Shown one piece after another: positions 14,542-44,250 of a stretch of 64,000 nt of DNA. This DNA is from a virus. The stretch lies in the IMG/VR virus record IMGVR_UViG_3300042401_001747, one strand, 5' to 3'. Positions within the stretch are counted from its first letter, which is position 1. Each line of letters begins with the position of its first letter. The translations under genes were made by a program, and so were the position numbers. The notes under the pieces were generated by a model. The model was not told where the DNA came from and searched no databases. It saw only the letters and a program-made list of their open reading frames with translations.

Positions 14542-15051
14542 CTGGCGTGGAAAGAGTTATCTACTCTTAGTAGTGCCATGCAGATAGCGAACGATACGAG
14601 CGTGTAAGGCTCTGTAAGCAACGCAAGAATGAGTAGCAGTATTTCCATGACTACTTTCTATCAGCGAGTTCAGAGAGAACGGACATGATGTTGTTTCCTT
14701 CATTGCATGTCAGGTTCTCGTAGTCCTCGTACGCTTTCTGTGGTGTGTATGTGTTTGCCACTATCTCGTCTCGTATCGCAGAGTAATACTTCATTGCGTT
14801 TGTGATACTTGTGAACAAGTCATCTAGTAGTTGTGATTCAGTTGGCTCGGTCATAATAAAAATCCATTTTTTGTAGTAGTGAATGTTGTTTGGTTTCCCC
14901 CTGCCACCACCCCTCACGCAGAATCAAAGGAGTATGAAACTTCCACGCTCGGGGCAGTGGTGGTACATAGAGTAGATAACTCCATGCACCAGTTTCCTTT
15001 CAGAGGTGGTGGTGTCCTGTCGGAGCCACCACCCCTGTCGGGAAAACTTAT

Positions 15052-16584
15052 CTACTCCCCTTTCTCGGGGAGAGGTACGCCCATGTGCTTGTAGTAGGTC
15101 TGTTGGAACATGTAAGGATACACGCTGTGAGCCTTGCCATTCACTTTCAGGTTGCGTAACTGTTGTATCGCTTCCTCAATGTGTGGAACAACAATGAAGT
15201 TGTGTTGGCGAGCGTAGGTAATGCACTGCATTGAGAGCAGGTCAGAGAATCCGTCATGCGCTCCACAGACACCACCATCTGTCACCCATACAAGAGGTGT
15301 GTTCTTGTATTGGCGATTCTTTACGCCCCACTCAATCGCAGGAAAGTCCACGCCGTTACCGTGTCCGTAGTCAATGTATTCCACATTCTCAACCATTTTG
15401 CCTTTGTCAGCAACGACCCACATGTTTGGCAAGTCTTTCCTTCCTCGGTCTGAATAGATAGCCACTGTTGCGCCTTGTGCGTTCTCAATGATTTCTGCAA
15501 TCTGTTCAGTAGTGAACGACATAGAGCCACTTGCGTCAATGATTACCATTCCACCACTGCCACGAATGGTCTTGTCAAAGACACGCTTCGCAGGGTCAGT
15601 CATGTAACGGTGCAATCGGCGTGGTCTGCGCCCCATGTTCGTAGCAATGCGCTTCTTGCCCATTGAGCCGTAGTGGTGGCGTGGCATTGGCTCACGACTA
15701 ACAATCAGTTCAGCCCAACCGTGTGCGCCACCAGCAGGAGCAGGGGAGACTTTGGCGTGTGGGTTTCCGTCTCTGTCACCGTCTTTGGATTCCTCGTACT
15801 CGGCGTGATGTTCTTCGTCACCTTCGCCTTTGGACTTATCTACTCCCTTTGCTTCGCCTGCCTTACCCTTTGGTGGTGGTGGGAACGAGGCAAGCCTGTC
15901 CACCCATTCTGCAAGACGCTCGGTGTGAGTGAATCCGTATGGAGCAATCCCTTCATAAGTGTCGGTGCTTGCGAGTGTGCGTTCTTTGTGCGCTTTACGC
16001 ATTTCTTTCACTGCTCGCTTGCCGATAGCAACAAGTGATTCACCCCACTCACGATTATGCCTGCGTATTCCGTTCAGGAATGTCTTGTGACCAGCAGTGT
16101 TCGCAGTAGCGATACACATAGCAACTGCGCCTGCCCAATCGTTTGACTTCGCAAGGTGTTCGCCTGTTGCCAGTTCGCTTCCGTCAGACAGAAACTTCTT
16201 GACATCAAATCCACGAGTTTCGCATAAGTAGTTCACTCGTAGTTCCTCTACAACAATCATCGCTGTCTCGGAAGCAACACTGCGCTCTACCCATTGGGTC
16301 ATCTGTTCAGGTGTGGGGGATACTTTTGCATGCATCATTTCATGCCCACGAACAACACGCTCCATGTCACCGTCCGTAGAAGGTGCGAACATGACACGGT
16401 TGGCTAGGTCTGTGCTTGGCTCTCCACGAACAGGCAGACAATCTCGGACTGTCCAGCGTTCATGTTCCATGTCTTTACGAGAGAGCATGTTGGGTTCAGG
16501 ACGGTGCGCCCCCCTTTCAGAGTTATCTACTCTACTGGGGAACGCCTTGCCTGTACCTGTATTGGTGGCAGGGGTGTAAGCCAT
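15052..16584 (-). CDS. VWA-domain protein with N-terminal HExxH motif (MoxR partner, CobT-like)
   Basis: HEMMH; MIDAS motif IIDASGSM; VTDG; adjacent to the AAA ATPase; stop TAG lies inside an A-box. Confidence 0.8.
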   Translation of the reverse strand: MAYTPATNTGTGKAFPSRVDNSERGAHRPEPNMLSRKDMEHERWTVRDCLPVRGEPSTDLANRVMFAPSTDGDMERVVRGHEMMHAKVSPTPEQMTQWVERSVASETAMIVVEELRVNYLCETRGFDVKKFLSDGSELATGEHLAKSNDWAGAVAMCIATANTAGHKTFLNGIRRHNREWGESLVAIGKRAVKEMRKAHKERTLASTDTYEGIAPYGFTHTERLAEWVDRLASFPPPPKGKAGEAKGVDKSKGEGDEEHHAEYEESKDGDRDGNPHAKVSPAPAGGAHGWAELIVSREPMPRHHYGSMGKKRIATNMGRRPRRLHRYMTDPAKRVFDKTIRGSGGMVIIDASGSMSFTTEQIAEIIENAQGATVAIYSDRGRKDLPNMWVVADKGKMVENVEYIDYGHGNGVDFPAIEWGVKNRQYKNTPLVWVTDGGVCGAHDGFSDLLSMQCITYARQHNFIVVPHIEEAIQQLRNLKVNGKAHSVYPYMFQQTYYKHMGVPLPEKGE

Positions 16585-16586
16585 TG

Positions 16587-17318
16587 CTATTTCACTCCGT
16601 CCACTGCAAGAGCGTCAAGAATCTGCTTGGCACGAGTACCGAAAGTGAGTTGGCATGCTCGTTCCATACCGACTGCCTTACGCAGTTTGTCAAGTGCCAT
16701 GAAGGCTCGCAATGAGATACGAGCCTCACCACCGTCAGCCATACGAACGGCGTAACCACGCAAGTCAGGAGACAAGCGTAGAAGTGCGTTGGGGTGTGGC
16801 TCGTTGATACGAACACGAATCGGGAAACGGTCAGCGAGTGCTGTTGGCAGTTCGCTCATGTTCTCAATGTTCGTGGTCATCACGGCAGAAAAGCCTTCTA
16901 ATGGGCGTACCAGTTCACCACTTTCAGGGTGTTGGAATGTGGCAGATTCAGGTGAATCCAACATGGCGAGAAGTGTTGCGAAAACATCGCCACCAGCCTT
17001 ATCTACTTCGTCCACGATGAGACGACCACCTTTTGTGCCGTTGCCTTTCCATGCTTTGAGAGCAGAGCCGTCAAGCCATTGGAAGCCACCGTTACTGCTT
17101 GGCATGAAGCCACCAGTTACGTCCATGTTTGTCATGTCCTCGGTGCAGACTAGGCGATGTGCGCCAGCCTCAATGTCTCCGAACGAAAGACCAGCGTAGG
17201 TCTTGCCTGTTCCAGCAGGTCCGAACAGAATGATTCTGTCTATTCCTGAGTCAAGTGCGTCCTTGACATCTTTCCAGCACTGTGGCAGTGCCTCTTGGGT
17301 GGTTGTTACTGTATCCAT
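16587..17318 (-). CDS. MoxR/CbbQ/CobS-type AAA+ ATPase
   Basis: Walker A GPAGTGKT, Walker B IVDEVD, TTN sensor, ALADRF arginine finger. Confidence 0.88.
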   Translation of the reverse strand: MDTVTTTQEALPQCWKDVKDALDSGIDRIILFGPAGTGKTYAGLSFGDIEAGAHRLVCTEDMTNMDVTGGFMPSSNGGFQWLDGSALKAWKGNGTKGGRLIVDEVDKAGGDVFATLLAMLDSPESATFQHPESGELVRPLEGFSAVMTTNIENMSELPTALADRFPIRVRINEPHPNALLRLSPDLRGYAVRMADGGEARISLRAFMALDKLRKAVGMERACQLTFGTRAKQILDALAVDGVK

Positions 17319-17640
17319 TGTATTGCTCCTTTGTAAGCGTTGTTGGTTGGACAAACACACCATACCACCTTCGGTACAGACTTTGATAATCGCTTGACAA
17401 AGTTATCTACTCTGTATGGAGAGAAGTTATCTACTCTGTTTGCGCCCCTTCCACCACCGTCAATGTGTTGCGTAGTTCTGCGTCTCGCTCGCTCGCTCGG
17501 TGCGCTTGCGTTGCGCAGATTTATCTCTCACCCCCCCCGTTCACTGCGCCCTGTGCCTGCCCCCCCTGTGGGCGAACAGCCCCGGGGGGAACCAAGCGCA
17601 GCGGGGCTATTGTCTAAAAAAGAAAAAGTTATCTACTCTC

Positions 17641-18129
17641 TTACTTCTTCCTCTGAACATCAGAGACTTGCCATAAACCTTTTTTGATTTTTGTGAACAT
17701 GTGAGATTCACTGACGTATTTCAGTGTCGTCTGATACGAGAATCCAGCAACCTCAACAAGTTGGTCGGTGGAAAACTGTTCGCCAGTGTGTTCGGTAGTC
17801 CATTTGTCAAACGCTCCCCATTTGTCTTTGCGTTTCTCGGGTCTACTCTCTTCGGTTTGGTCACTGCTAACAACAGTAGATAAATAGGTTTTTATGAACG
17901 ATGACATCACATCTGTACCTAGTGAATAATGTTTCAGCATTGCTACTGGATTTCCGTTGCGTCCTTCTCTGTGCCACTTCTCCATTATGTAAAGACCACG
18001 AACAGTCTCGCTCATTCGGTACTGCTCTGCACTCTGTTTCATTCGTGCTTTGTCTGTTTTGTATTTCTTGTAGAACGAATCATGCATACGCTTGTTCTCT
18101 TCATTTACAAACTCAATCGTGAAGTTCAT
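17641..18129 (-). CDS. Hypothetical protein
   Basis: AAGGA RBS; ends 1 bp from an A-box. Confidence 0.65.
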   Translation of the reverse strand: MNFTIEFVNEENKRMHDSFYKKYKTDKARMKQSAEQYRMSETVRGLYIMEKWHREGRNGNPVAMLKHYSLGTDVMSSFIKTYLSTVVSSDQTEESRPEKRKDKWGAFDKWTTEHTGEQFSTDQLVEVAGFSYQTTLKYVSESHMFTKIKKGLWQVSDVQRKK

Positions 18130-18243
18130 TTTTATTCCTTTTTATTTGACCCCTAATGGAGTAGACAAGCCTGAAAGGGGGAAACTTATCTACTCCAAAC
18201 TTAGTGGGTGATTTTGTTGTTTATTAGAGAGTATCGCTCATTC

Positions 18244-18438
18244 TCATAATAGAGAGAAAGCGTCTCCCTCTTCTTGTATCAAGCCGAGACTACTGCCGTT
18301 ATCCCACAAGACATGAACAGTGCCGTAATCGTCCACATCTGTTACCACCCCTTCATCTCCTCGTTGTAGTTTCGTATAAGGGTCAGTGCATGCGTCAAGC
18401 CTGACACGCTTGCCGATTAGGTCTGTCTTTGTTCTCAT
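18244..18438 (-). CDS. DUF4314-like SH3-fold small protein
   Basis: RVRL...DPY...GDEGVVTDVDDYGTVHVLWDNGSSLGL pattern. Confidence 0.75.
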   Translation of the reverse strand: MRTKTDLIGKRVRLDACTDPYTKLQRGDEGVVTDVDDYGTVHVLWDNGSSLGLIQEEGDAFSLL

Positions 18439-18582
18439 GCTGGCACTTCCGTTTCTTTGTTCAGAAGTAGGCGAATGTCTAAGAGCATGTCCATCATTTC
18501 ATGTGACGATACATTGTCTCTGCCTGAACAGTTGGCTATTGCCTTGTCCACTAGGGCGATGATTTCCTCATTCATAAGTTAT

Positions 18583-19284
18583 CTACTCTCCTTTCTTTCT
18601 CTTGGGTGCTTTTTTGAGTATGTCTGTGTATTTGAGGGTCTGTGTTGCGATGTTCATGTATTGAGCAGTAGCAACCATTACATCAACTAAGCGTCCGTAC
18701 TCGTCATTGTCGTCATACGGATAGGAAGTAAAGAACGGCTCGTCAAATGTCGGTACACCAGTGTCGTTGTAGCGATACATGTTGGCAACGCCCCATACGC
18801 CAGTCATGCCCCAATCAACGGCACTCATCATCAGTCCTTCACGGACATCGGTGAATGGATTTTCTTTGTATTCCTTCTCCAAGTCACCCTTGTTCATTTT
18901 CTTGACTTCTGATTGGTCTGTCTCTTCTGACAGGTCTTTGCCGTAGCCCTCAACGACTACTGCTATGAACTCAAACTTGCGAATAGGAAGCGAGCGAACA
19001 ACATCATCGTAAGCGTCATACATGTCCTCTTTGTGAATCAACGGAACCATTGCCACTTGATAGGGCTTAGATAGCGATAGTTCTTGTTGGTTGATGAGGC
19101 AGGCTTCGTGTTCCTCTTCGTTTTCCTCAACGCTCTCAAAAGCGACTAAGAATAATGGTGGGTTGTCTGACATCGGCTCCTCTTTGCACATTTCTGTTTT
19201 CGCATAGACGCTTCTATGAAGCAGGTCGGTCAGTATCTTGGTGATGTCATCATCAAGGTCTTTGTTGATTTTTTGTGATTTCAC
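18583..19284 (-). CDS. Hypothetical acidic protein
   Basis: Cassette promoter at 19320-19348 and GAAAGGGG RBS; stop inside an A-box. Confidence 0.7.
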   Translation of the reverse strand: MKSQKINKDLDDDITKILTDLLHRSVYAKTEMCKEEPMSDNPPLFLVAFESVEENEEEHEACLINQQELSLSKPYQVAMVPLIHKEDMYDAYDDVVRSLPIRKFEFIAVVVEGYGKDLSEETDQSEVKKMNKGDLEKEYKENPFTDVREGLMMSAVDWGMTGVWGVANMYRYNDTGVPTFDEPFFTSYPYDDNDEYGRLVDVMVATAQYMNIATQTLKYTDILKKAPKRKKGE

Positions 19285-19403
19285 TGTATGCCCCTTTCAG
19301 GCTTGTGGTGTTACTGGAAACCATACCATGCTCGGTACAGACTTCCAAATGTTATCTACTCTGACAGGCAAGGGTCGGTACAAGCCCTTACATGCCAGCA
19401 TTG

Positions 19404-19631
19404 TTATTTATTTCCTATGAGATTGTTCATGGACACGCCAAGTGCGTCACCTACAAGAAGTAGGGTCTCAACGCTTGGTGCGTAGCGTCCGTTCTCAACA
19501 CGATTTACAGTTTTCCTATCCACGCCTGCACGATTAGCGAGTTCTAACTGTGACCAGCCCTTCTTGGTTCTGTGTGTTCGTACTGATTCTGAAATGTTTT
19601 CCATAGATTGTGTGTTTTTTGTAGTTCCCAT
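19404..19631 (-). CDS. XRE/Cro-C1 helix-turn-helix protein
   Basis: WSQLELANRAGVDRKTVNRVENGRYAPSVETL. Confidence 0.88.
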   Translation of the reverse strand: MGTTKNTQSMENISESVRTHRTKKGWSQLELANRAGVDRKTVNRVENGRYAPSVETLLLVGDALGVSMNNLIGNK

Positions 19632-19670
19632 TCGGGTTCTCTTTTCTTTTGTGTAGTTATCTACTCTTAT

Positions 19671-20393
19671 TTAGACTGATGAAATAAATGATTTAGGTAT
19701 CGTTCCTTTCTTTTCGCACCGTTTCATGTATGCGAGATGTTTTGGGTATTCGGTCATGACAATCATAAGTTCGTCATCACAGAGTTCTACTAAATGATGT
19801 TCCCATTCGCTAAACGATTCGTACCAATCTTCTTCGTCCTCGGACAAGTTGGGGTTTTCAGGGTCGTTCGCTTTTTTGCATTTTTCATCAAGTTCAGGGG
19901 TGAGCCTCTGGGGGTCACGCCCACCTTCCTCAATAACTTCTCCATTATGGAAAGCAGACCACGCCACAAAGGCACTGGACTCCTCTGTGGAAACAACTCC
20001 AAAGACAAGGCTCGGATACATGGCAGAAATCTTGGCAATAAGTGCGTCACATGGACTCCACGCAGACTCGTAACGCATAGAAAGCGTTTTTCCGTCAAGA
20101 GCAGGGTCATCTACATCTACGCTACATGCGCCCCATTTGCTACCCCATGTCTCAATAGCGTCTAAGTACCCATCAAATCCGTCACTCTCACTACTGAAAG
20201 CAGTAAAGACAGTTTCTACTCCGTCAGCGTTGGTCGTCTTGATTTCTTTTGACCCTCTTGGGTCAAGTGGTACGAGTTGATTCAGGTCGTACTCTTTATG
20301 TTCTGTGTTTTTTACTTCTATGTCTTTGATGAACTTGGCAAGGTTTCTTTTTGTTCCCTTGACGGTCATGTAGTTGTAACACCAGTTAGGCAT
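19671..20393 (-). CDS. DUF1281/YubB-like ferredoxin-fold protein
   Basis: MPNWCYN...WGSKW...YESAWSP pattern. Confidence 0.7.
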   Translation of the reverse strand: MPNWCYNYMTVKGTKRNLAKFIKDIEVKNTEHKEYDLNQLVPLDPRGSKEIKTTNADGVETVFTAFSSESDGFDGYLDAIETWGSKWGACSVDVDDPALDGKTLSMRYESAWSPCDALIAKISAMYPSLVFGVVSTEESSAFVAWSAFHNGEVIEEGGRDPQRLTPELDEKCKKANDPENPNLSEDEEDWYESFSEWEHHLVELCDDELMIVMTEYPKHLAYMKRCEKKGTIPKSFISSV

Positions 20394-20639
20394 CTGTTCC
20401 TCTTTCAGTAGGTTTGTTTCCACAGCGTACCACCTGTGGAACAGACTTCACTCAGCCCTCTTCCACCACCGTGAATAGGTTGGACAAAGTTATCTACTCT
20501 CTTTCCGTCTCGGCTTGGCTCGCCCTCGTCCCTCGGATTTATCTCTCACCCCCCCGTTCATCTCGCTCTGCTGTTTTCAGCAAGAGCCCCGGGGGGAAGC
20601 AAGCATGGCGGGGCTGTTCTCGAAAAACAAGAAAGTTAT

Positions 20640-20957
20640 CTACTCTGATAGAGAAGCGTAGATAAGTGAGACGCTGACGAACGAGTGTCCGTCGTTGCTC
20701 CTACGTCTCACGAACGAGAGCATCTGCCACATGCTCGGTACATGCATGAACACTGAATCAAGAGACCACCCATACATGTCAAAGTCACATGGCTCCATAG
20801 GTTCAGGGGCGAATGAGATAACCCTCACTGACGGCGTACGCTCCCACAACCAGCGAACACGACATTCAGAGCCGACCAGTATCAGGTCTCTGTGAAACAG
20901 TGCATGACGGACATAGGACATCAAGACAGAGAAATAGATACCGATAGTCGTCCACAT
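20640..20957 (-). CDS. Hypothetical protein
   Basis: Starts 1 nt after one A-box and its stop lies inside the next. Confidence 0.55.
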   Translation of the reverse strand: MWTTIGIYFSVLMSYVRHALFHRDLILVGSECRVRWLWERTPSVRVISFAPEPMEPCDFDMYGWSLDSVFMHVPSMWQMLSFVRRRSNDGHSFVSVSLIYASLSE

Positions 20958-20960
20958 GAG

Positions 20961-21206
20961 TTATCTACTCTGACTCATGGCAGGTTTCCGTCTGTCCTCT
21001 ACGGACATTGACGCAACCTTCATCACGAGAAGCGAAAGGGTTTCCAGTAACTTACGCTCGGACACATCGTGTTCCAAAGCGACCCAGTTTGCAATGTCCT
21101 CGTACTCGCCCCAAATGATTTGCAGCGCCTCTGTGGCAGTAGTGGCGAGAGTGTAATAGTTCTCCCAAATCAACTCTGCTAACTCTTCCTGAAAAATCAC
21201 TTCCAC
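20961..21206 (-). CDS. Hypothetical protein
   Basis: GAGGAG RBS; ends ...SR* encoded by an A-box. Confidence 0.6.
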   Translation of the reverse strand: MEVIFQEELAELIWENYYTLATTATEALQIIWGEYEDIANWVALEHDVSERKLLETLSLLVMKVASMSVEDRRKPAMSQSR

Positions 21207-21343
21207 GGTCTCTCCTCAATACAATCCTCGCAAATCCAAGCACGATGATACTCGTGCCAAGTGTAGTTGGATTCAGGGTCGTCTCTACCACAGTAGAGAC
21301 ATTCATCGGGTTCTGTTTCTGTTGCCACTTATCTACTCCCTTC

Positions 21344-21949
21344 TCACGGCAACCAGTAGGTGGGTGCGCCCTTTGAGATGTGTGTCTCAACGAACGATAC
21401 TGCCCATTCCCACACCGTGTCACGATGACCGTAGAGACCAGCGTCAATGGCACGAGATGTGCGATTGTCAAAATCCACGATGGTGGTGGTGTCTTTCTTA
21501 CTCAGAACCTGAGCAACATCTTTCTCTGTCAAAGCGTCCTGCTTATCCACGATTGCTACTACTGCGTCAGACGAGTGCTTGACATCTGTCATCTCTGCTC
21601 GTAATGAGAGGTACGAGTTGCGAACCACTGCTACACGGAATGGCACTTGGTCAAAGTAGGTGGACTTGCCACCGAGTAGACCTGCGTCAATAACCACGAA
21701 ATCGTAGCCCGTGATGTCCTGATTGCTCACCTTGTCAAACGGTGTGCCAATAATGGTGATACCACCGTATGTCTGTTCCTTTGATGACGGAACACTTAGT
21801 CCGAGAATCAACATGTCATCGTTGTTCACTGATGTGTCAATGAGCAACACTTTCTCAGGATTGGTCTTTCCCAATGCCAATGCGATTGAGCAGGCTGTGG
21901 TGCTTGTGCCGACCCCACCCTTTCGTGCGCTTACTTCTATTACTTTCAT
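21344..21949 (-). CDS. ParA/MinD-like P-loop protein with deviant Walker A
   Basis: SARKGGVGTST, VLLID, YDFVVIDAG; has its own cassette promoter. Confidence 0.7.
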   Translation of the reverse strand: MKVIEVSARKGGVGTSTTACSIALALGKTNPEKVLLIDTSVNNDDMLILGLSVPSSKEQTYGGITIIGTPFDKVSNQDITGYDFVVIDAGLLGGKSTYFDQVPFRVAVVRNSYLSLRAEMTDVKHSSDAVVAIVDKQDALTEKDVAQVLSKKDTTTIVDFDNRTSRAIDAGLYGHRDTVWEWAVSFVETHISKGAPTYWLP

Positions 21950-22280
21950 GAGATACCCCTTTCAGGTACGGCAGGTAGTTGCCAACAACAATGTACCACG
22001 ATGAGTACAGACTTCCAAAGAGTTATCTACTCTCATTCTTTCGCCCCACAGAGAGACTGCTCTGTTCCTTGACTTATCTCTCGCCACCCCCGTTGTTTGC
22101 TTTCGCACCCTTCGAGTGAAAAGCCCCGCTTCGCTGTGTTCCTGCCGGGGCTATCTGCCAAGAGCGCGCGCATGGGGGAGTGAGAGATAACTCGCAGATT
22201 TGTGAGAAACACGGCGAGATGAAAAGTTATCTACTCCGAGTGAAGGCTTGCGAGACGGTGGCAAGAGAGTAGATAAGTGA

Positions 22281-22312
22281 AAGTCCCCGTCAGGGGGGAC
22301 TGACGGGGACTT
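22281..22312 (-). terminator. Intrinsic terminator-like hairpin
   Basis: AAGTCCCCGTCAG-loop-CTGACGGGGACTT, a perfect 13-bp stem downstream of 22340-22810. Confidence 0.65.
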
Positions 22313-23473: not shown

Positions 23474-23477
23474 GTCG

Positions 23478-37381: not shown

Positions 37382-37425
37382 GATTGTTCCCTTCGGCTTT
37401 CTCTATCTAAATGATACAGCCGAGA

Positions 37426-38454
37426 TTAGGATACTCCTGACAATAGATAATCCTGAGCCTTTACTTTTGCTCGTGTCACCCATGAGTTGTTGCTCATAGA
37501 CGCGAGTGCTCGCTCGGTAGGTGTTGCTTCGCGATAGTGGTCGAGATACTCGCCGATTGCGTTGACCAAAGACCAGCCGTTGTACCCGTAGTTCTTTGCG
37601 TTGTTATCGTTTGCGTAAATTGCGCGTACCAATGCTGTTACTTCTTTGTGGTTTGTTTCTTGACGCGCTGTTGCGTCTTTGCTTATCGGGAATACTTGAT
37701 TCAGTGTCTTGTCAAGTATTTGAGAAGAAGCAGGAACATTTATTGACAGCAACTTTTCTGCTGTAAGCGTGAACTCGCGAGCCCATTCGGTCGAGATGTT
37801 GAGAACTTCGTTCGCTTGCTCCATTGCTCTATCTGCATTGCGTGTATGGCGCGCAGTAAAGACTCGCTTCGCTGATGAAACACCAGCAATAACTGTGTTT
37901 TTACATACGGCACGAATACTCGTGTTCGCAAAGGTAATCGCCGTTTTGCCGTCATGTCCATTGTGTACGAGTAGATAACGCTCAATCGAGTCATTGATTC
38001 CTGCTGGGTCGATTATCAGCGCACCCATGTCAATAGACGCAAAGAATTCACAGCCATCTCTCAGCACCCCACAGGTATCCACAACGGCGTCCCCGTCCGA
38101 AGCTCCAACTATGTCGAGGGCGTAATTGAGGCATTCCCGATTTTGCTGAACTACATAGCGAGTACCCACTGTTGCTAGTCCATTAAACGACCCGTCCGTA
38201 TTCACCCGTACCGTTGCTCTGCTATCTGGAACGAGGATTGTAGTTCCGTCTGGTTGGCGAATCGGCTCGCCTTCATCGTCACATACGGCTACCCGTGTCG
38301 TTACTACGTCGAAATCTGCCTGTGCTGCTGCGAGCATTGCCTCAGCCGTTTGTAGGCCTTTCATAGGCTGCCCAAGCTTGTGCCATGGAATCTGTCGGTC
38401 TGCGTACGCCATGCGTGCCGTGCCGTCTTTGTTGATTTCTATCTGATGAGCCAT
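37426..38454 (-). CDS. DUF932 family (phage/plasmid-like) protein
   Basis: PWHKLG...YVVQQNRE...YLLVHNGHDG...IRAVCKNT...RHT...WSLVNAIGEYLDH pattern. Confidence 0.82.
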   Translation of the reverse strand: MAHQIEINKDGTARMAYADRQIPWHKLGQPMKGLQTAEAMLAAAQADFDVVTTRVAVCDDEGEPIRQPDGTTILVPDSRATVRVNTDGSFNGLATVGTRYVVQQNRECLNYALDIVGASDGDAVVDTCGVLRDGCEFFASIDMGALIIDPAGINDSIERYLLVHNGHDGKTAITFANTSIRAVCKNTVIAGVSSAKRVFTARHTRNADRAMEQANEVLNISTEWAREFTLTAEKLLSINVPASSQILDKTLNQVFPISKDATARQETNHKEVTALVRAIYANDNNAKNYGYNGWSLVNAIGEYLDHYREATPTERALASMSNNSWVTRAKVKAQDYLLSGVS

Positions 38455-38685
38455 AGCCGTCTCCGTCTCTGTTTTCTTATAGATAAATCTATCTGAAAGA
38501 TACCCAGTTCCAGTGCAACAGTTATTAGCGGGGCTCCCCCCTTGGGGGCGTTGCTCGCGCGTGGGGGTGGTGAGAGATAAGTCTGCTGGTTTGAGTGAAG
38601 TGGCGTACTAGCAGAGTAGATAACTCTTCGCAAGTCTGTACCCCTGCTGGTACGATTTGGGTATTCCAACTGAAAGGGGAACCCA

Positions 38686-39153
38686 ATGAGAACCATTATG
38701 AACGAGCACACAGGCGAAATCCCTGCCGACCAAAGTTTGGAGGCGTGCCGAGCACGCTCCTACACAAAGCGCAACACGCAGTGCGCCTCGGCTGACCTGC
38801 CTGAAGAATGGGAAAGCATCCACGATGCAACGCTGGAGCAAAAGTGCAATCGCCTCGCCACGGTGAACACAGGCAAATACGAGTTCGCCCGTAGCCTCGC
38901 TCAGCAGTTCAAGGACAAGGGAACACTTTCCGACAAGCAAATCGTCTGGGTCAATCGCCTCTACCACGAACACGCCGAAATCAATCGCATCGTGCGTAAT
39001 GTTCGTGGAGCACACGAATGGACAACGGTCGGTGCAATCACCCACAACCTAAACACAGTGCTCGGCACTTACGCCATTACCAACTTCCACAAGTGCGACA
39101 GATGTGGCGAATGGGGCGAGACCTACGAAAGCAACAACTACTCGGGCGACTGA
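38686..39153 (+). CDS. Hypothetical protein with C-terminal CxxC
   Basis: Cassette promoter at 38628-38656; GAAAGGGG RBS. Confidence 0.68.
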   Translation: MRTIMNEHTGEIPADQSLEACRARSYTKRNTQCASADLPEEWESIHDATLEQKCNRLATVNTGKYEFARSLAQQFKDKGTLSDKQIVWVNRLYHEHAEINRIVRNVRGAHEWTTVGAITHNLNTVLGTYAITNFHKCDRCGEWGETYESNNYSGD

Positions 39154-39401
39154 CCACCCCCCCCAAAAAAAAGACGGCACTCGGAGTAGATAACCCCCCA
39201 ACCCCGACCCTGCGTCGTCAGGGCGAGAACAACCTCGCGAAGCGAGGGCGTTAGCCAGCAAAGCCGGGGCTTTCGCTCAAACCTGCTGACATCGGGAGCG
39301 AAACGGGGGGGGTGAGAGATAACTCGGATTACCAAAAACAACAAACACACAGAGAGTAGATAACTTTTGCAAGTCTGAACCAGCGATGGTACATTGTGTG
39401 C

Positions 39402-40610
39402 ATGAGACAAGTACCCACAGCATCACTAGCCCATAGCCTGCACACCGATTACCTGCAATACCGAGAAAGTCACCCAACGATGGACAGGCTCTTGCATCTC
39501 GGATACTTTCGCGCCATGTGGGCAGACAGCGATACGCCGATTTTGACCCGTGACGCATTGGAGAGCGAAGCAGAAAGAGGCGCAGTCCATCACGAAGTGC
39601 ATCGCGCACTAGATGACACAATCATCGCGCTCGGTGACACTGTGTTTCTCACTGACGACCTGCGTGAGTTGGTCAAGACGGCAGAAGCAACAATGCCCGA
39701 TGAAGTTTTATTTGAGACGGACATTTTTACCCCGTGTGGATTTATCGTGATGGAAACACCACTACACAAAAGCGTACGGTCACTCATAAGAGCCGAAGAT
39801 TTTGACGAAGTGCTAACGCTCGCAAAAAAGTATGGCGCAATAGTAAGTGGAACACGCAATGACAATGAACCCGACGAAGATGGAAACTATGTGGGCACGG
39901 AGAATTGGGAAGTGCAAGCGTTTGCATGGGCTGACGCGAACGCCGTAACACCCGTAGCACTTTTGGAAATAGAGAGACGGTTCGGCAAGGACAGTAACGA
40001 ATACGCTTTGGCTCAAAACATTTCTAAGAACTCAGAGAACGCCGATGCTATTCAGGTGCGCGTCTTTGGGACTCTTGTATCAACTACTGTCAATGGACTA
40101 ACGATAGAAGTGCCACAACTACACATTGCTCCGTTACGACTAATGGACATGTATGTGTTTTTCTATGGCGAAGACGGAATGGAAATAGAACGCGAAGCAA
40201 GTGGAGTAGATAACTCCTCAGAAACAGAACTAAACGAGTCTTCATGGGAACGAAGCAGGGAAGTGCGTCGTTTTCTTGTTGCTCTCTTTCGCTTGATGGA
40301 GGAGTATGTAGACAAAGACACAACCGTTCTCCCTCGCGCTTTCGGAAGACGCGCTACCCGTGGTGGTCGTAAGGGTGATACAAAAAGTGTCACAACACTT
40401 TCATTGCGTCGCGCCCTCTATGACGAAACAGACGGAACGGGAACAGGAGTGAAAGTAACTCTCGCTCACCTAGTCCGTGGTCACTGGCGTAATCAGTGGT
40501 ATCCATCACGAAAGATGCACCGTGCAAAATGGATACAGGCTCATCGCCGTGGTGGAAACATCACAGACGAAGTGACACAACGCCCACGCGTTATCAAGGT
40601 AGACCGATAG
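39402..40610 (+). CDS. Hypothetical protein with C-terminal HxVRGHWR motif; probably leaderless
   Basis: ATG 7 nt after the -10 of promoter 39367-39395; HLVRGHWRNQWYPS. Confidence 0.72.
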   Translation: MRQVPTASLAHSLHTDYLQYRESHPTMDRLLHLGYFRAMWADSDTPILTRDALESEAERGAVHHEVHRALDDTIIALGDTVFLTDDLRELVKTAEATMPDEVLFETDIFTPCGFIVMETPLHKSVRSLIRAEDFDEVLTLAKKYGAIVSGTRNDNEPDEDGNYVGTENWEVQAFAWADANAVTPVALLEIERRFGKDSNEYALAQNISKNSENADAIQVRVFGTLVSTTVNGLTIEVPQLHIAPLRLMDMYVFFYGEDGMEIEREASGVDNSSETELNESSWERSREVRRFLVALFRLMEEYVDKDTTVLPRAFGRRATRGGRKGDTKSVTTLSLRRALYDETDGTGTGVKVTLAHLVRGHWRNQWYPSRKMHRAKWIQAHRRGGNITDEVTQRPRVIKVDR

Positions 40611-40619
40611 GAACGCAAA

Positions 40620-40671
40620 AGCGCCGTGCCGATACTTATCTACTCTCATAGGTAAGTGCCGACACGACGCT
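40620..40671. terminator. Long imperfect hairpin between convergent genes, containing an A-box
   Basis: ~23-bp stem AGCGCCGTGCCGATACTTATCTA / TAGGTAAGTGCCGACACGACGCT with a 6-nt loop. Confidence 0.55.
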
Positions 40672-40692
40672 TACGTCGTGTACCGAATGTGT

Positions 40693-41013
40693 TTACTTAG
40701 TCCGTGCGTGTTTCCCGTAAGGATACGAAGGGTGCGCCCGTCGTGCGTCGTGACGCATGCCCTTGATTTCTCCGTATGCCCAAACGCCAAGCAGTGTTCC
40801 CGTCACAGTGCCCGTGACGGTCAGAAACAAACCAGCGAAAAGGTCGTAAGCAGTGTGGCTCTGATACGAGAGCGATGCGAGATACAGACCAAGCACGGTG
40901 AACACCCATGGCGTTCCTGCGAGAAGTTTGTAAATCAGTGTCGGATAGTTTTCTGAAAGCCAGTTAGTAGTCCGTGCTTCTATTTGGTCTAGGTGGTTGA
41001 TGATGTTTGTCAT
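40693..41013 (-). CDS. Two-TM membrane protein
   Basis: Cassette promoter at 41047-41075; hydrophobic segments. Confidence 0.65.
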   Translation of the reverse strand: MTNIINHLDQIEARTTNWLSENYPTLIYKLLAGTPWVFTVLGLYLASLSYQSHTAYDLFAGLFLTVTGTVTGTLLGVWAYGEIKGMRHDARRAHPSYPYGKHARTK

Positions 41014-41272
41014 GATGGTTTCCTATCAGTTGGTGGTGACACACGAACTGTACCACTCACAGTACAAACTATCAAGGATTATCTCTCACTCCCCCGACAT
41101 TGGGGACAGTGGCTGTGGTGGGAGCCCCGGGTTTTGTTGGTTATCTTGTGTAGATAGAGGGTCACGGCAAGGTTTACTATTCCAATCGACCAGCCAACAT
41201 AGTTTCTCATGCTTCACATTTTACAAGCACGGTCTCGGCCATCTAGAAGGAAATGACGACTGTGACGGTTAT

Positions 41273-41533
41273 CTACTCTGTGTCAGTATCGCCACGCAGG
41301 TAGTTGGCACGCATCACCTCAGTGGTGGCCTCTCCAATTTGGTCAAGTGTTGTGATGTCGTAGATACAACCACAGCGACAGCAGAGATACGAACGGCTAT
41401 CCCACAAACCGTTAGCAACGGGTTCTACCATTTCGCCTGATAGTAGACATGCGTAGAAACCGTCTATGTCAGGTTCGTTACCACATTCACATACAAGCCA
41501 GTCGGCTACTGTTCTGTCGAGATTGAGTGTCAT
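41273..41533 (-). CDS. Small Cys-rich (Zn-finger) protein
   Basis: CECG...CCRCG; stop inside an A-box. Confidence 0.65.
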   Translation of the reverse strand: MTLNLDRTVADWLVCECGNEPDIDGFYACLLSGEMVEPVANGLWDSRSYLCCRCGCIYDITTLDQIGEATTEVMRANYLRGDTDTE

Positions 41534-41982
41534 GACTGTTCTGTTTCCTTTGGTTTTTCGGTGATTAGGAAAGCCCTATCATAGGGGTTATGTGGGGGGT
41601 CATCGTGCCACACGCCATCAGGCCATGCTGTACGAGAGTGAACGCCATAAATGTTTTGTCCAAACAGTTCAGTGCTCTGCCAAGCGTGTGTACAGCAAGG
41701 AATAATGTCGCTGTTCGAATGACAGTTCTGACCAACCGTCTGAGCGAGCAGAGGGAATGTAGTAAGAAACTTAGCAACGCAGTCATGACACATAATCCAT
41801 TCACGAGAACGAACCCTGCCTGAGAGAACATCAAGGTTGTCATCGAAGCCACCATAGTAACCAAAGGTGTCGAAGGGTAAGACCCAGCCGTCATCGGGGT
41901 AACTATCTTGTTGAGTACAGATGACCTGTTGAGCACATGCTGAGCAGGTTGCGTATTTGTTAGGTGTGTAGGGTTGGTTCAT
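41530..41982 (-). CDS. Cys-rich hypothetical protein, probably leaderless
   Basis: CSAC...CHDC; ATG 8 nt from the -10 of promoter 41990-42018. Confidence 0.65.
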   Translation of the reverse strand: MNQPYTPNKYATCSACAQQVICTQQDSYPDDGWVLPFDTFGYYGGFDDNLDVLSGRVRSREWIMCHDCVAKFLTTFPLLAQTVGQNCHSNSDIIPCCTHAWQSTELFGQNIYGVHSRTAWPDGVWHDDPPHNPYDRAFLITEKPKETEQS

Positions 41983-42055
41983 GTAGAGAATGGTACCACC
42001 ATGAGTACAGACTCCCGTAGGGTACCCGTGGCACTTTGCGTGACCATCGAGAAAA

Positions 42056-42421: not shown

Positions 42422-42627
42422 CTGCGCAGAGTATCACTCCACTAACGAGAGGGGTGGCTATCCCCACTTGATTTCTTTGGTCTGTTTGTCTTGGGGCTCT
42501 ACTGATAACACTTCGAGCATGTCTCCTTGACTGAGAAGGTTGCGCACTAGGGATAGTGCCTCATCTACTGATGATGGTATGTCAAGGTCACTGCGCTGAC
42601 CTACTGTAACGGTGATTCGGTATGTGT

Positions 42628-42861
42628 TCATGCCTTGTACCATACAGCCTTAGATAGGCGAGCGATGCTAGATGCCTGCTGAGGTGATGAGCAAGGGATA
42701 CGCCTAATGATGCGATGCGTATCATCTGATGTCGTTACTGATAACCACACCTCCACGATGTTACCTATGGCATTGATGTAGGTGACTGTCCCCTCTGATG
42801 CTAGGTCAATGATGGGTGAGGTGAGTAGATGGTCTATTGGTGATGAGGTGATGGTGTTCAT
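42628..42861 (-). CDS. Hypothetical protein (plausible portion of the 42628-43257 ORF)
   Basis: MNTITSSPID... begins about 8 nt after a TTTACT-N17-TACTGT promoter; the upstream part is low-complexity. Confidence 0.5.
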   Translation of the reverse strand: MNTITSSPIDHLLTSPIIDLASEGTVTYINAIGNIVEVWLSVTTSDDTHRIIRRIPCSSPQQASSIARLSKAVWYKA

Positions 42862-44250
42862 GTGAAGGACAGTACACGAGGGGTGGTACACAGTAAAGGG
42901 GGTGAGGGGCAAGGGTGATGATGTTTCTAAATACGAGGGGTAGTGAGATGGGTAATAGATAGGGGGTGATGAGGTGAGGGGTAGATGATGAATGATGAAT
43001 GAGTGAGAGGTATGAGTGATGAGAGGGGTAAGAGATGATGAGGTAATGATGACTAGGTAGGTAGGTAGGTAGGTAGGTAGGTAGGTAGTGATGATAGGTA
43101 GAGGGGAGGGCAAGAGGTAAGAGGTAGAGATGATGATGAGTAGAGGGGGTAGGGGTAAGGGGTAGCAATGATGGAGAGTAGAGAGAGGTAGAGGTAGAGG
43201 GGTAGAGGTGATGAGAGGTGATGATGAATGATGATAGGTATCCAATCGGATACGCACTAGGTAGGTGATGATGATGGGGTATGTGTACTACTACCCGTGA
43301 GACACCCATGGCACTTGCGAAAAAGGTGAGGGGGTAGAGGTGAGGTGAAAGGGTCAAGGGGTGAGGGGGTGATGATGATGATGAGGGGTGATGGTCAAGG
43401 GGGTAAGGGGTGAAGGCATGAGGTGAAGGGGTGATGAGTAGAGGGGTAGGGGTAGGTAGATGATGAGGTAGGTATGGGTATGGGTATGTATGTGTAGGGG
43501 TATGTACTAGTACCCGTGTACTACCCGTGGCACCTGCGAAAAAACAACACAACAAATGATGACGATGATGACGATGACGAATGGTCAAGGGGTGATGGGC
43601 ATAGGGGGTAGGGCATAGGACATAGGGGGTAGGGGTAGTGATGACGATGGTCAATGACCAACGATGATGATGCGATACACAATGCGTAATGACAATGATG
43701 ATGATGCGATAGGCATAGGCATAGGCAATGCGATAGTCAATGCGTGATGATGCGATGCGATACACGATGCGATACGCAATACACAATGATGACGAACAAT
43801 AATAAATGCGATGATGTAATGCGATACGCAATGCGATGCGATGATGTAACGATGATGCGATGACGATGAACGAATGATGATGTGTCAATGCGATGACGAT
43901 GCGTAATGCGATGACGATGTGCGATAGTCAATGCGATGTGATGTGATGACATCGTGCGATGCGATGACGATGCGTCAATGAATGATGAACAACAATGATG
44001 ATGATGTGATGACGATGTGTCAATGCGATGTGTGTATGTCAATGAATGATGTGATGTCACAACTCTACTGATGGTGATAGAAGTGTGACTATGTGTCACG
44101 CTTCTGTGTGTGTGCGTGTGGTGGCGTGTGTAATAGCGTGCCTATGGGGCGCGCTTCTGTGTATGAACAGGCAGTGTGTGTTCTGTTGTGTATGCCATAC
44201 ACAGGGGAGTAGGGGGGTGGGGGTATAGCCCCGCGAGCTTTCAACCGAGG
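42850..44250. repeat. Strand-biased low-complexity non-coding tract with iteron-like repeats
   Basis: C-poor GGTA/GAT/GGGGT words, (TAGG)8 at ~43054-43085, then GCGAT/GATGAC words; two ~45-bp repeats at 43280-43324 and 43501-43544. Confidence 0.85.

What the first reader, a model, noticed from the sequence alone, without database searches (positions are those of the whole stretch)
14550..42900. A ~28-kb array of small gene cassettes built from a recurring kit of DNA elements
Seen: read in the direction of transcription, the intergenic spaces follow one grammar with parts dropped or duplicated. The order is gene stop/A-box, optional F hairpin, AGCCCCG..CGGGGCT hairpin (often followed by T-rich bases), GGGGG..TGAGAGATAA B-box, optional TTGACGGTGGTGGAAG, A-box, promoter, GAAAGGGG RBS, then 1-3 small genes. 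Clear examples are 17359-17639, 20424-20646, 22848-23148, 23959-24197, 24992-25285, 28249-28500 and 30857-31117, mirrored on the plus strand at 32901-33063 and 39183-39395. The sequences between elements are unrelated, so these are conserved functional sites rather than recent tandem duplications. About 21 cassettes carry ~45 mostly ORFan genes. Established: T4-type PeSL (promoter-early stem-loop) elements drive modular gene shuffling, and mycobacteriophage L5 uses dispersed asymmetric stoperators. Neither has this five-part kit as far as I know. Inference: this is a plug-in early/host-takeover gene library in which each unit has its own promoter and terminator and may be exchanged by recombination at the repeats, an integron-like arrangement in a phage. 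No recombinase is visible in the window.
Basis: partly seen in the sequence, partly recalled or inferred. Interest (0 to 1): 0.92.

Follow-up and report, generated by a model that had tools for sequence, protein, structure and literature searches.

The report
Shuffled early-gene cassettes in phage
A large uncultured lake phage runs about 30 kb of small early genes from repeated promoter, hairpin and short "word" modules, and related phages have gained, lost, swapped and reordered genes at those modules, much as the known PeSL cassettes of T4-type phages do; it is not an integron.

Summary
All five motif classes are far above chance and follow the stated order. The A-box GAGTAGATAAC has 66 copies against 0.7 expected. 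The promoter has 20, the B-box 24, the 7-bp-arm hairpin 10 and the X word 8.

Three corrections apply.
- The B-box is a variant of the A-box.
- The hairpin loop is about 17 nt.
- The modules are diverged paralogues (70-92% identity over 50-224 bp), not unrelated sequence.

Relatives carry the same kit, confined to the same roughly 30-kb early region. In a complete 156-kb genome, 115 of 119 copies of the core word lie there.

Gene content and order differ between lineages.
- Three indels have hybrid junctions exactly inside an A-box or hairpin.
- Two single-ORF replacements begin at the ATG behind the conserved promoter and RBS.
- Three short insertion/deletion differences also begin or end at a start codon behind a conserved RBS.
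- Cassettes are transposed and inverted in the distant relative.

That relative has no tyrosine or serine recombinase, RecA, RecT or ERF. The left half of the array is collinear in every lineage.

Best reading: PeSL-like regulatory cassettes combined with a stoperator-like oriented word, which makes this a new variant of a known kind. This scan has noted similar arrays, and a sister word, on other phage DNA.

The parts
11828..42012 (.). Whole field of kit elements (the early-gene array). Transcription is leftward from about 31.5 kb down to 11.8 kb and mainly rightward from 32.4 to 40.6 kb.
   Evidence: Positions of the A, B, P, H and X elements. The same field is confined to 90-131 kb of the complete relative G006.
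17362..17381 (-). Promoter P. It reads -35 TTGnAA, a 17-nt spacer beginning GTCTGTAC, then TGG plus the -10 TACnnT. This is one of 20 copies. The others start at 19323, 20427, 21993, 22851, 23962, 24446, 26096, 27006, 28252, 29258, 30860, 31487 and 41050 and 41993 (minus strand), and at 32469, 33041, 33794, 38634 and 39373 (plus strand).
   Evidence: The same architecture occurs 21 times in the G006 early region, with the AGATAA box at a fixed 9 nt upstream.
23996..24006 (-). A-box that serves as the left crossover point of the 438-bp indel (cassette 24008-24446).
   Evidence: Three-way junction alignment. The relative matches the left flank up to the A-box and the right flank after it.
24474..24484 (-). 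A-box that serves as the right crossover point of the same indel.
   Evidence: A third allele (metagenome contig L245) lacks 24215-24467 instead.
24202..24411 (-). 69-aa ORFan cassette gene, present in the window and absent from Rel-1, L245 and G006.
29460..29490 (.). Hairpin H (AGCCCCG-N17-CGGGGCT). It is the left crossover point of the 1566-bp indel.
31017..31048 (.). Hairpin H. It is the right crossover point of the 1566-bp indel.
29665..30828 (-). 387-aa gene (PHROG 2319) inside the segment missing from the relatives.
33845..34186 (+). Expression slot. A 113-aa ORF here is replaced in Rel-1 and in L145 by an unrelated 66-aa ORF. The junctions are at the ATG after the conserved promoter/RBS and just after the stop codon.
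38686..39153 (+). Expression slot. A 155-aa ORF here is replaced in Rel-1 by an unrelated 131-aa ORF.
41268..41278 (-). A-box at the crossover of a 115-bp indel. The partner is a degenerate A-like word near 41141.
23099..23144 (-). A'/A inverted pair giving a 17-19-bp perfect stem at a cassette 3' end. Other pairs are at 24158-24195, 25242-25284 and 27518-27555.
   Evidence: RNA folds with z-scores of -4.2 to -6.4.
22074..22190 (.). Unit of inverted B-box, H hairpin and B-box, about 120 bp. Other copies are at 27035-27156 and 29414-29534.
   Evidence: Alignment and folds.
17448..17463 (-). X word TTGACGGTGGTGGAAG. Other copies are at 10595, 14182, 20460, 22918 and 25062, all on the minus strand.
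   Evidence: G006 has six copies, all on the minus strand.
13795..14172 (+). Candidate regulator with an HA domain plus a sigma-70 region-4-like HTH.
   Evidence: Pfam HA 6e-10 and Sigma70_r4 5e-6. Conserved in Rel-1 (96%) and G006 (72%).
19404..19631 (-). Candidate regulator: a 75-aa XRE/Cro-type HTH protein inside the array.
   Evidence: Pfam HTH_3 4e-15. NCBIfam RstR-like repressor 1e-10, below that family's cut-off.
21344..21949 (-). ParA-like P-loop ATPase cassette. In G006 it is transposed and inverted.

Best explanation
The region is the early-gene block of a roughly 156-kb uncultured freshwater tailed phage. The block probably serves host takeover and anti-defence, and the host is possibly actinobacterial.

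The small genes sit in expression units built from diverged copies of one composite regulatory module. The module has three parts.
1. A strong host-type promoter. It reads -35 TTGnAA, a 17-nt spacer with the conserved block GTCTGTAC, an extended -10 TGG-TACnnT, and a short conserved leader with the GAAAGGGG ribosome-binding site.
2. Upstream of the promoter, a cluster of stable hairpins (the A'/A stem, the H hairpin with invariant 7-bp arms, and G/C tetraloop stems). These most likely end, attenuate or process the upstream transcript.
3. An oriented word with core GTAGATAA, which covers the A-box and its G-run variant the B-box. It sits at a fixed 9 nt from the promoter spacer block, about 3 nt from the -35 hexamer. 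It also occurs alone at gene junctions and inside some genes. It is most likely the docking site of a phage-encoded regulator that gates early transcription, in the way that mycobacteriophage operators and stoperators do.

The same parts recur every 0.3-1.5 kb, so they also act as portable homology. Recombination or template switching between copies deletes, inserts, replaces and moves promoter-gene units over evolutionary time, as PeSLs do in T4-type phages. No dedicated recombinase is involved.

Shown here: the motifs, their order and their confinement to this region; the gene-content and order differences between lineages; and the three hybrid junctions.

Inferred: promoter and terminator activity, the factor that binds the word, and the recombination enzymology.
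For: Promoter.
- Its architecture is conserved between the window (19 copies found with the pattern) and the divergent complete genome G006 (21 early-region copies), with the AGATAA box at the same distance.
- Canonical TTGACA/TATAAT promoters are depleted in the region, 8 against 16 expected.

Core word.
- GTAGATAA occurs 70 times in the window (2 expected) and 119 times in G006 (4.8 expected). In G006, 115 of the 119 lie at 90-131 kb.
- No A-box occurs in the other roughly 72 kb of contig G002.
- 53 of 70 copies are co-oriented with the nearest gene.
- An A-box inside the DUF932 gene, antisense to it, is kept at the orthologous position in G006 (w37969 and G006 124446).

Structure.
- Inter-cassette RNA folds have z-scores of -2.7 to -6.4 in eight of the nine inter-cassette stretches folded; the ninth (20553-20650) gave z = -1.3.

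Comparative evidence.
- Against Rel-1 (81-92% nt identity), nine or ten indel or replacement events lie between 24 and 46 kb.
- Hybrid junctions fall in an A-box, in the H hairpin and in another A-box.
- Two ORF-precise non-homologous replacements begin at the ATG behind the conserved promoter/RBS.
- Rel-1 has an extra ORF inserted right after the RBS.
- Contigs L145 and L245 carry mosaic allele combinations and a third allele at the 24.2-kb slot.
- Against G006, cassette order is permuted and two cassettes are inverted.
- In several cases the promoter-side flank moves with its gene.

Homology and precedent.
- Module copies share 40-85 bp at 85-92% identity.
- PeSL precedent: PMC2839356 and PMC4122927.
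- Stoperator precedent: PMC9283540.
Against: - There are no expression data, so promoter, terminator and regulator roles rest on sequence alone.
- The H hairpin has a 17-nt loop and only a weak T-tract. The terminator scan does not pick it up.
- The H arms are invariant in 25 copies, so there is no covariation. H could equally be a protein-binding palindrome.
- Junction positions are enriched in kit elements against the whole region (P = 0.005 to 0.0002) but not against intergenic DNA (P = 0.3 to 0.67). For most events, selection on random intergenic breakpoints is therefore not excluded.
- Only three of about nine events show the hybrid-repeat signature.
- Window 8.2-21.2 kb (26 genes with many kit copies) is collinear in all lineages.
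- Rel-1 is 99.5-100% identical (99.9-100% in ten of the eleven), with one arrangement, in 11 contigs.
- Effectively only three or four independent lineages were compared.
- Gene calls are my own heuristic.
- The binder of the word is not identified. The recognition helices of both HTH candidates are conserved between lineages, which does not discriminate between them.
Confidence: 0.62

Rival explanations
1. The kit is purely regulatory. The elements are transcription, RNA-processing and translation signals only. The differences between relatives come from ordinary illegitimate or host-mediated recombination anywhere in the DNA, and selection keeps only intergenic breakpoints. The repeats have no special role in plasticity.
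For: - Junctions are not enriched in kit elements relative to intergenic DNA.
- The left half of the array is collinear in all lineages despite many kit copies.
- Rel-1 has the same arrangement in 11 contigs.
- No phage recombinase was detected.
Against: - Three events have both ends in copies of the same element, in register, and leave one hybrid element. Random intergenic breaks would rarely produce that.
- Three different alleles occur at one slot.
- Replacements start exactly at the ATG behind the longest conserved block, the promoter and RBS.
Confidence: 0.22
2. The system is integron-like. A dedicated recombinase recognises the A/B boxes or the H hairpin as att-type sites and inserts or excises cassettes.
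For: - Short, perfectly conserved, oriented words lie at cassette borders.
- Two crossovers map within an 11-15-bp A-box, which is shorter than typical substrates for homologous recombination.
Against: - The complete relative G006 has no Phage_integrase or Resolvase match, and no recombinase domain appears among the window ORFs scanned.
- Cassettes carry their own promoters.
- Crossovers use at least three different elements (A, H and the promoter/RBS edge).
- A-boxes also lie inside genes, and the word sits at a fixed distance from promoters, which points to a transcriptional role.
- The arrangement is stable in 11 contigs of one lineage.
Confidence: 0.04
3. The A-box acts in RNA rather than DNA. 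It could be a processing site, a docking site for a trans-acting RNA or protein on the early transcripts, or a stop/SD/start junction element. The A'/A stems would then be RNase III-type or stabilising hairpins.
For: - The word is co-oriented with transcription.
- Antisense copies nearly always pair with a sense copy to give 17-19-bp stems.
- The word carries TAG and TAA in two frames.
- In several junctions it overlaps an SD-like GGAG/GAGAG followed by an ATG 3-4 nt after the box, for example at 18588, 20970, 27712 and 33424.
Against: - The fixed distance (8-10 nt in 11 of the 20 window promoters) to the promoter spacer block, conserved between divergent genomes, places many copies upstream of the transcription start they accompany.
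- Rfam finds no known RNA family in the window other than one tRNA.
- A conserved copy lies antisense inside the DUF932 gene.
Confidence: 0.12

Closest known systems
PeSL (promoter-early stem-loop) cassettes in the hyperplastic regions of T4-type phages RB49/phi1, T4/PST and KVP40/nt-1 (Arbiol et al. 2010, PMC2839356; Comeau et al. 2014, PMC4122927)
   Same: - Dozens of copies per genome of a composite unit holding the upstream stop codon, a sigma70-like early promoter, a stable G/C-rich stem-loop and an SD.
- The units are concentrated in a region of small ORFans.
- Related phages differ by insertion, deletion and replacement of the flanked genes, with crossovers in the repeated unit. In PeSLs the crossover is placed in the region just upstream of -35, where the A-box sits here.
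   Different: - This is not a T4-type phage. G006 has no Gp23 capsid match, although that search rang in no control genome, so it only hints at absence.
- The module is longer, about 250-300 bp.
- The hairpin cluster lies 60-200 bp upstream of the promoter rather than overlapping it.
- The promoter spacer is itself conserved.
- A separate oriented 8-15-bp word recurs 70-119 times, also away from promoters and inside genes.
- Mini-circles and promoter or terminator activity have not been tested here.
Operators and stoperators of Cluster A mycobacteriophages (L5 gp71, TipsytheTRex repressor; PMC9283540)
   Same: - An asymmetric word of about 13 bp in many copies.
- It is found both at promoters and in short intergenic spaces.
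- Its orientation is tied to the direction of transcription.
- Its spelling shifts between lineages (GATAAC here, GATAAG in G006).
   Different: - The density is much higher: 70 copies in 30 kb, against just over 20 across a whole genome of about 50 kb.
- The word is confined to the early block of a large phage in which no integrase was found.
- No homologue of the stoperator repressor was identified.
- Binding and roadblock activity are untested.
Start-associated sequences and extended SAS of Cluster K mycobacteriophages (Pope et al. 2011, PMC3203893)
   Same: - An oriented 13-bp word restricted to the non-structural half of the genome.
- It often holds the upstream stop codon.
- It is sometimes accompanied by 17-bp inverted repeats.
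- Its function is unknown.
   Different: SAS lies 3-7 bp before start codons and contains the SD. Here the word mostly lies just upstream of the -35 hexamer or at 3' ends, and a separate GAAAGGGG serves as the SD.
Integron gene cassettes (IntI/attC)
   Same: An array of small, mostly unknown genes separated by repeated structured sites, with content that varies between relatives.
   Different: - There is no integrase.
- There is no attC-type site.
- Cassettes are self-promoted rather than driven by one Pc promoter.
- Genes lie on both strands.

Membership tests
PeSL-type regulatory cassette | Sigma70-like early promoter in each repeated unit | tested here: met
   Met at sequence level only. 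The unit reads TTGnAA, 17 nt, TGG-TACnnT. There are 20 copies in the window and 21 in the G006 early region. Promoter activity was not measured.
PeSL-type regulatory cassette | Stable stem-loop (terminator or attenuator) within the composite unit | tested here: inconclusive
   Stable hairpin clusters are present in every full unit, with fold z-scores of -2.7 to -6.4 in eight of the nine stretches folded and -1.3 in the ninth. They lie 60-200 bp upstream of the promoter, lack a good T-tract and are not called as terminators.
PeSL-type regulatory cassette | Concentrated in a plastic region of small ORFans | tested here: met
   The kit is confined to about 30 kb in the window and in G006. Most of the genes have no Pfam match.
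PeSL-type regulatory cassette | Indels and replacements between relatives with crossovers in the repeated units | tested here: met
   There are three hybrid junctions and ORF swaps at the promoter/RBS edge. Position enrichment against intergenic DNA is not significant.
PeSL-type regulatory cassette | Host phage belongs to the T4 superfamily | tested here: inconclusive
   G006 has no Gp23 match and no RecA/UvsX-type match. The Gp23 search rang in no control genome, so absence is not proven.
PeSL-type regulatory cassette | Excised mini-circles | not testable with these tools
   This needs reads or PCR on phage DNA.
Integron | IntI-type tyrosine recombinase | tested here: not met
   PF00589 gives no match in the complete relative G006, while it rang in 14 of 14 control genomes. 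None was found among the window ORFs scanned.
Integron | Promoterless cassettes ending in attC and expressed from one Pc promoter | tested here: not met
   There are 20 promoter copies, usually one per 1-3 genes.
Stoperator system (Cluster A mycobacteriophages) | Asymmetric word of about 13 bp in many copies, at promoters and in short intergenic spaces | tested here: met
Stoperator system (Cluster A mycobacteriophages) | Orientation tied to the direction of transcription | tested here: met
   The strand of the word switches with the transcription blocks. 53 of 70 copies are co-oriented with the nearest gene, and most exceptions are hairpin partners.
Stoperator system (Cluster A mycobacteriophages) | Bound by a monomeric two-domain repressor that blocks initiation and elongation | not testable with these tools
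   Candidates exist: an HA plus sigma4-like HTH protein at 13795-14172 and a Cro-like protein at 19404-19631. No binding data are available, and no search for the L5 gp71 family was run.
MITE-like mobile element | Presence/absence polymorphism of the inverted-repeat unit itself between relatives | tested here: not met
   The B'-H-B units at 22.1 and 27.1 kb lie inside collinear blocks in Rel-1. The unit at 29.4 kb is only one end of a larger deletion.

The most novel reading that the evidence does not exclude
The GTAGATAA word is the docking site of a fast-evolving phage regulator that gates both initiation and elongation across the whole early block of a large, apparently non-temperate phage. 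That would be a stoperator-type circuit outside temperate mycobacteriophages. The same word would double as the preferred microhomology at which promoter-gene units are excised and re-inserted. One short sequence would then set both the expression programme and the evolvability of an anti-host gene library, in a family of freshwater phages that each use their own spelling.
Probability: 0.22. Interest if true: 0.75.

Novelty: new variant of a known kind. Interest (0 to 1): 0.55.

Why it matters
- It extends the PeSL principle, in which regulatory repeats act as portable homology that shuffles accessory early genes, to a phage lineage with no detected T4-type capsid or RecA/UvsX genes.
- It does so with nucleotide-level junctions drawn from environmental genomes.
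- It shows a stoperator-like oriented word at unusually high density in a large phage that appears to be lytic.
- The variable slots mark genes under rapid turnover and are likely anti-defence or host-takeover functions. Neighbours carry DUF932, DUF3846, DUF1281_C, ParA-like and SNF2 domains.
- The conserved promoter, RBS and terminator frames are ready-made expression slots, which makes these ORFans easy to test.

Tried and rejected
- Hairpin search with a 2-12-nt loop found nothing, because the loop is about 17 nt.
- No isolate phage resembles the region. Megablast of 20 kb and blastn of 7.9 kb found nothing. tblastn of the 510-aa protein also found nothing.
- No genome is held for the window.
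- Rfam finds only a tRNA.
- The metagenome pattern scan was too loose. Most of the 119 loci were chance hits and 10 were real relatives.
- The junction-position enrichment test is not significant against intergenic DNA, so I do not use it as support.
- Covariation in the H stem and its flanks is absent: the arms are invariant and only one flank position pairs above the shuffled control. Structure and protein site cannot be separated.
- The RecT-like annotation of a distant homologue of the 387-aa protein could not be confirmed. There are no Pfam, NCBIfam or PDB matches.
- I compared the reverse complement of the A-box by eye with the DnaA box, IHF and UP-element consensus sequences. None fits well enough to claim a match.
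- The X word contains GGTGGTGG, one base off the E. coli Chi sequence. I did not pursue this because the host is unknown.
- Comparing the recognition helices of the two HTH candidates between lineages did not discriminate between them.

Full report
**What is in the window.**
The window is phage DNA.
- It encodes an SNF2 helicase (34989-36938), a DUF932 protein (37426-38454) and an AAA_5 ATPase (16587-17318).
- It also encodes dTDP-sugar enzymes, an Rpf-type transglycosylase and a protein of more than 2994 aa.
- No genome is held for it, and no cultured phage resembles it at DNA level.
- The helicase's best tblastn hits are in Arthrobacter and Gordonia phages at 32-35% identity.
- Together with the Rpf-type domain and an HA domain, this weakly suggests an actinobacterial host. 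That is an inference.
- Notes from other windows of the same genome describe it as a freshwater phage of about 157 kb. I did not check that.

**Check of the observation.**
Every element class is far above chance against dinucleotide-preserving shuffles.

| Element | Copies | Expected |
|---|---|---|
| A-box GAGTAGATAAC | 66 | 0.71 |
| B-box | 24 | 0.33 |
| Promoter block GTCTGTNC-N6-TGGTAY | 20 | 0.11 |
| AGCCCCG-N14-22-CGGGGCT | 10 | 0 |
| X word ACGGTGGTGGAAG | 8 | 0.03 |

In the direction of transcription it reads: gene end, (A'/A inverted pair), H hairpin, small G/C hairpin, B-box, (X), one or two A-boxes, promoter, GAAAGGGG, ATG.

The A-box is on the minus strand from 11.8 to 31.5 kb and on the plus strand from 32.4 to 40.2 kb, following transcription. 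Most opposite-strand copies are the partner of an inverted pair.

- The hairpin loop is about 17 nt.
- The field starts near 11.8 kb.
- Copies of the module are recognisably paralogous, at 70-92% identity over 50-224 bp. "Unrelated sequence between elements" is therefore too strong.

**Anatomy of the parts.**

*Promoter.*
- Aligning all promoter copies shows a host-type promoter: -35 TTGnAA, a 17-nt spacer that begins with the conserved block GTCTGTAC, TGG as an extended -10, then TACnnT.
- About 18 nt further on lies a conserved leader with GAAAGGGG and the ATG.
- Classical TTGACA/TATAAT promoters are depleted in the region.
- The AGATAA core of an A- or B-box lies 9 nt before GTCTG in most copies, which is about 3 nt before the -35 hexamer.

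*A and B boxes.*
- A and B are one family. A reads TGAGAG-TAG-ATAAC. B reads G-run-TGAGAG-ATAA.
- In the divergent relative G006 the B position holds GGGGGAGTGGTAGATAAG.

*Hairpins.*
- The A'/A pairs fold into 17-19-bp perfect stems. Eight of the nine inter-cassette stretches folded are much more stable than shuffles, with z from -2.7 to -6.4; the ninth (20553-20650) gave z = -1.3.
- The H arms are invariant in 25 copies from two genomes. The eighth positions never pair and the flanks show almost no covariation.
- H may therefore be a structure, a protein-binding palindrome, or both.
- H is not a canonical intrinsic terminator.

*A-boxes inside genes.*
- A-boxes inside genes always use the one open frame, GTA-GAT-AAC/G.
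- One copy lies antisense inside the DUF932 gene and is kept at the orthologous site in G006.

**Relatives.**
Scanning IMG/VR for the A-box and for A-box plus promoter, and scanning metagenome contigs, gave several lineages.
- **Rel-1.** It is 81-92% identical to the window. It was recovered at 99.5-100% identity (99.9-100% in ten of the eleven) and with one arrangement in 11 contigs.
- **A closer lineage.** Contigs L145 and L245 are 92-95% identical, and a 4.3-kb contig is 97% identical.
- **G006.** IMGVR_UViG_3300032288_004702 is a complete 156,276-bp genome with terminal repeats. It is about 68-78% identical at DNA level in shared genes.
- **G001.** This more distant contig ends just as the A-box field begins.

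The kit is confined to the same block everywhere.
- In G006, 115 of the 119 GTAGATAA copies lie at 90-131 kb, as do all P, H and X copies.
- In the 92-kb contig G002 all A-boxes lie in the first 20 kb.
- The spelling shifts by lineage: mostly GATAAC after GAGAG here, and mostly GATAAG after GGT or GTA in G006.

**Is gene content exchanged at the repeats?**
Against Rel-1, the window is collinear from 8.5 to 24.0 kb. It then differs by nine or ten events up to 46 kb.

Junction alignments show the following.
1. **24008-24446.** This cassette carries a 69-aa ORF with its own kit and is absent from Rel-1. Rel-1 follows the left flank up to the A-box and the right flank from the A-box on, so the junction is a hybrid exactly in the 11-15-bp word.
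2. **29472-31038.** This segment is 1566 bp, includes a 387-aa gene and is absent from Rel-1. The switch lies inside the H hairpin.
3. **115-bp indel.** The switch lies at A-box 41268-41278 and a degenerate copy near 41141.
4. **Third allele.** L245 lacks 24215-24467 at the same slot.
5. **ORF replacements.** At 33845-34186 and 38686-39153 the ORF alone is replaced by an unrelated one. The replacement runs from the ATG behind the conserved promoter/RBS to just after the stop codon.
6. **Insertions and other differences at start codons.**
   - Rel-1 has an extra ORF inserted directly after the RBS at 32519.
   - The window has an extra 33-aa ORF at 29120-29221, read from the block ends and my ORF calls; that junction was not aligned.
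   - The complex difference at 27575-28213 ends 7 nt short of the ATG of the 108-aa gene 27894-28220.
7. **Mosaic alleles.** L145 combines a window-like backbone with the Rel-1 allele at the 33.8-kb slot, and it lacks the Rel-1 insertion at 32.5 kb.

Against G006, window 8.2-21.2 kb (26 genes) is collinear. The units from 21.3 to 34.8 kb are permuted.
- The G006 order is [23156-23954], [24537], [26255-26960], [22340], [25314-26062], ... [27703], [28495].
- The ParA-like gene 21344-21949 is transposed and inverted.
- The gene 33437-33655 is inverted.
- Each genome has many private genes.
- The promoter-side flank usually travels with its gene. The downstream flank usually does not.

**Limits of that evidence.**
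- Kit elements with 5-10 nt of padding fill 33-43% of intergenic DNA. The 17 junction coordinates are enriched in them against the whole region (P = 0.005 to 0.0002) but not against intergenic DNA (P = 0.3 to 0.67).
- The real support is therefore three in-register hybrid junctions, the ORF-precise swaps next to the longest conserved block, and multiple alleles at one slot.
- Half of the array never rearranges, and one lineage is structurally uniform in 11 contigs. Exchange is occasional, not a running shuffling machine.

**Recombinase and polymerase searches.**
- The complete relative G006 gives no match to Phage_integrase, Resolvase, RecA, RecT or ERF. All of these rang in control genomes.
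- It also gives no match to Sigma70_r2.
- It gives no match to T7-type RNA polymerase or T4 Gp23. Those two searches rang in no control genome, so they are weak evidence.
- No recombinase domain was found among the window ORFs scanned.

**Candidate regulators.**
- A 125-aa protein at the left border combines an HA domain with a sigma-70 region-4-like HTH (13795-14172).
- A 75-aa XRE/Cro-type HTH protein lies inside the array (19404-19631).
- Both are conserved in Rel-1 and G006, and their recognition helices are unchanged.
- Which of them binds what, if anything, is inference.

**Comparison with known systems.**

*PeSLs.* PeSLs of T4-type phages are described as follows (PMC2839356; PMC4122927).
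- There are about 50 composite units of roughly 100 bp per genome.
- Each unit holds the upstream stop codon in an AT-rich stretch, a strong sigma70-like promoter, a G/C-rich stem-loop and the SD.
- They are concentrated in hyperplastic ORFan regions.
- Recombination between them explains the indels and replacements between RB49 and phi1, and it yields mini-circles.

The present array works like this. Even the crossover position just upstream of -35 matches. It differs in four ways.
- The phage lineage is different.
- The module is longer, with the hairpins set apart from the promoter.
- The promoter spacer is conserved.
- A separate oriented word recurs 70-119 times.

*Stoperators.* The oriented word matches the layout of Cluster A mycobacteriophage operators and stoperators (PMC9283540).
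- It is asymmetric.
- It has many copies.
- It lies at promoters and at short junctions.
- Its orientation is tied to transcription.

Binding and roadblock activity are untested, and no integrase was found.

*SAS/ESAS.* These Cluster K elements are a looser parallel (PMC3203893).

*Integron.* Membership fails on the recombinase and on cassette structure.

**What this scan saw before.**
These are AI notes used as leads only.
- Other first-stage notes on this same stretch flagged the conserved promoter spacer, the inverted A-box pairs, the B'-H-B units and the HA-HTH protein. I checked each of these.
- On other DNA, the scan reported PeSL-like cassette arrays in several uncultured phages.
- It also reported a sister word, GGTGTAGGTAAG, tiling the early block of another freshwater phage that its note calls actinobacterial, read there as stoperator-like.

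**Verdict.**
The array is a PeSL-like regulatory cassette system combined with a stoperator-like oriented word, in a phage lineage with no detected T4-type capsid or RecA/UvsX genes. It is a new variant of a known kind. The main open questions are what binds the GTAGATAA word and how often cassettes actually move.

Noticed in passing
window 42902-44212: The 1.3-kb G-rich low-complexity tract is absent from Rel-1, where the blocks join directly. The corresponding stretch in G006 is only about 0.9 kb. The tract is therefore itself a variable insert at the right edge of the array.
   Followed up: partly
window 10595, 14182, 17448, 20460, 22918, 25062 (all minus strand); G006 95043-111141: The X word TTGACGGTGGTGGAAG is strictly oriented. 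It lies 13-70 nt upstream of promoters or replaces the A-box there. It contains GGTGGTGG, one base off the E. coli Chi sequence, and in frame it reads LTVVE. Its role is unknown.
   Followed up: partly
IMG/VR contigs G001, G002, G003, G004, G007: Assemblies of relatives tend to begin, end or lie wholly within this array. That fits assembly breaks at repeats or at strain-level variation in this block.
   Followed up: no
window 8190-21206 vs G006 92472-106528: Twenty-six consecutive genes are collinear across all lineages even though the stretch holds many A-boxes and three promoters. This part of the array, which includes the AAA ATPase, a 510-aa protein and the Cro-like HTH protein, behaves as a conserved core.
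   Followed up: partly
window 37969-37979 (+) inside DUF932 gene 37426-38454 (-); G006 124446: An A-box lies antisense within a conserved gene and is kept at the orthologous position in the distant relative. It faces the convergent helicase operon, as a block to read-through transcription would.
   Followed up: partly
window 18173-18180, 25260-25267, 26508-26515: CCCCTTTC, the complement of the shared GAAAGGGG ribosome-binding site, occurs on the sense transcripts at cassette 3' ends. One copy sits in the loop of an A'/A hairpin. These could be anti-SD elements.
   Followed up: no
window 12020-12718, 19671-20423, 23478-23954, 26517-26960, 37426-38454: Domains typical of plasmid leading regions and anti-restriction islands occur among the cassette genes: DUF1599, DUF1281_C/Api92-like, DUF3846, pPIWI_RE_Y (just below Pfam's cut-off) and DUF932.
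   Followed up: no
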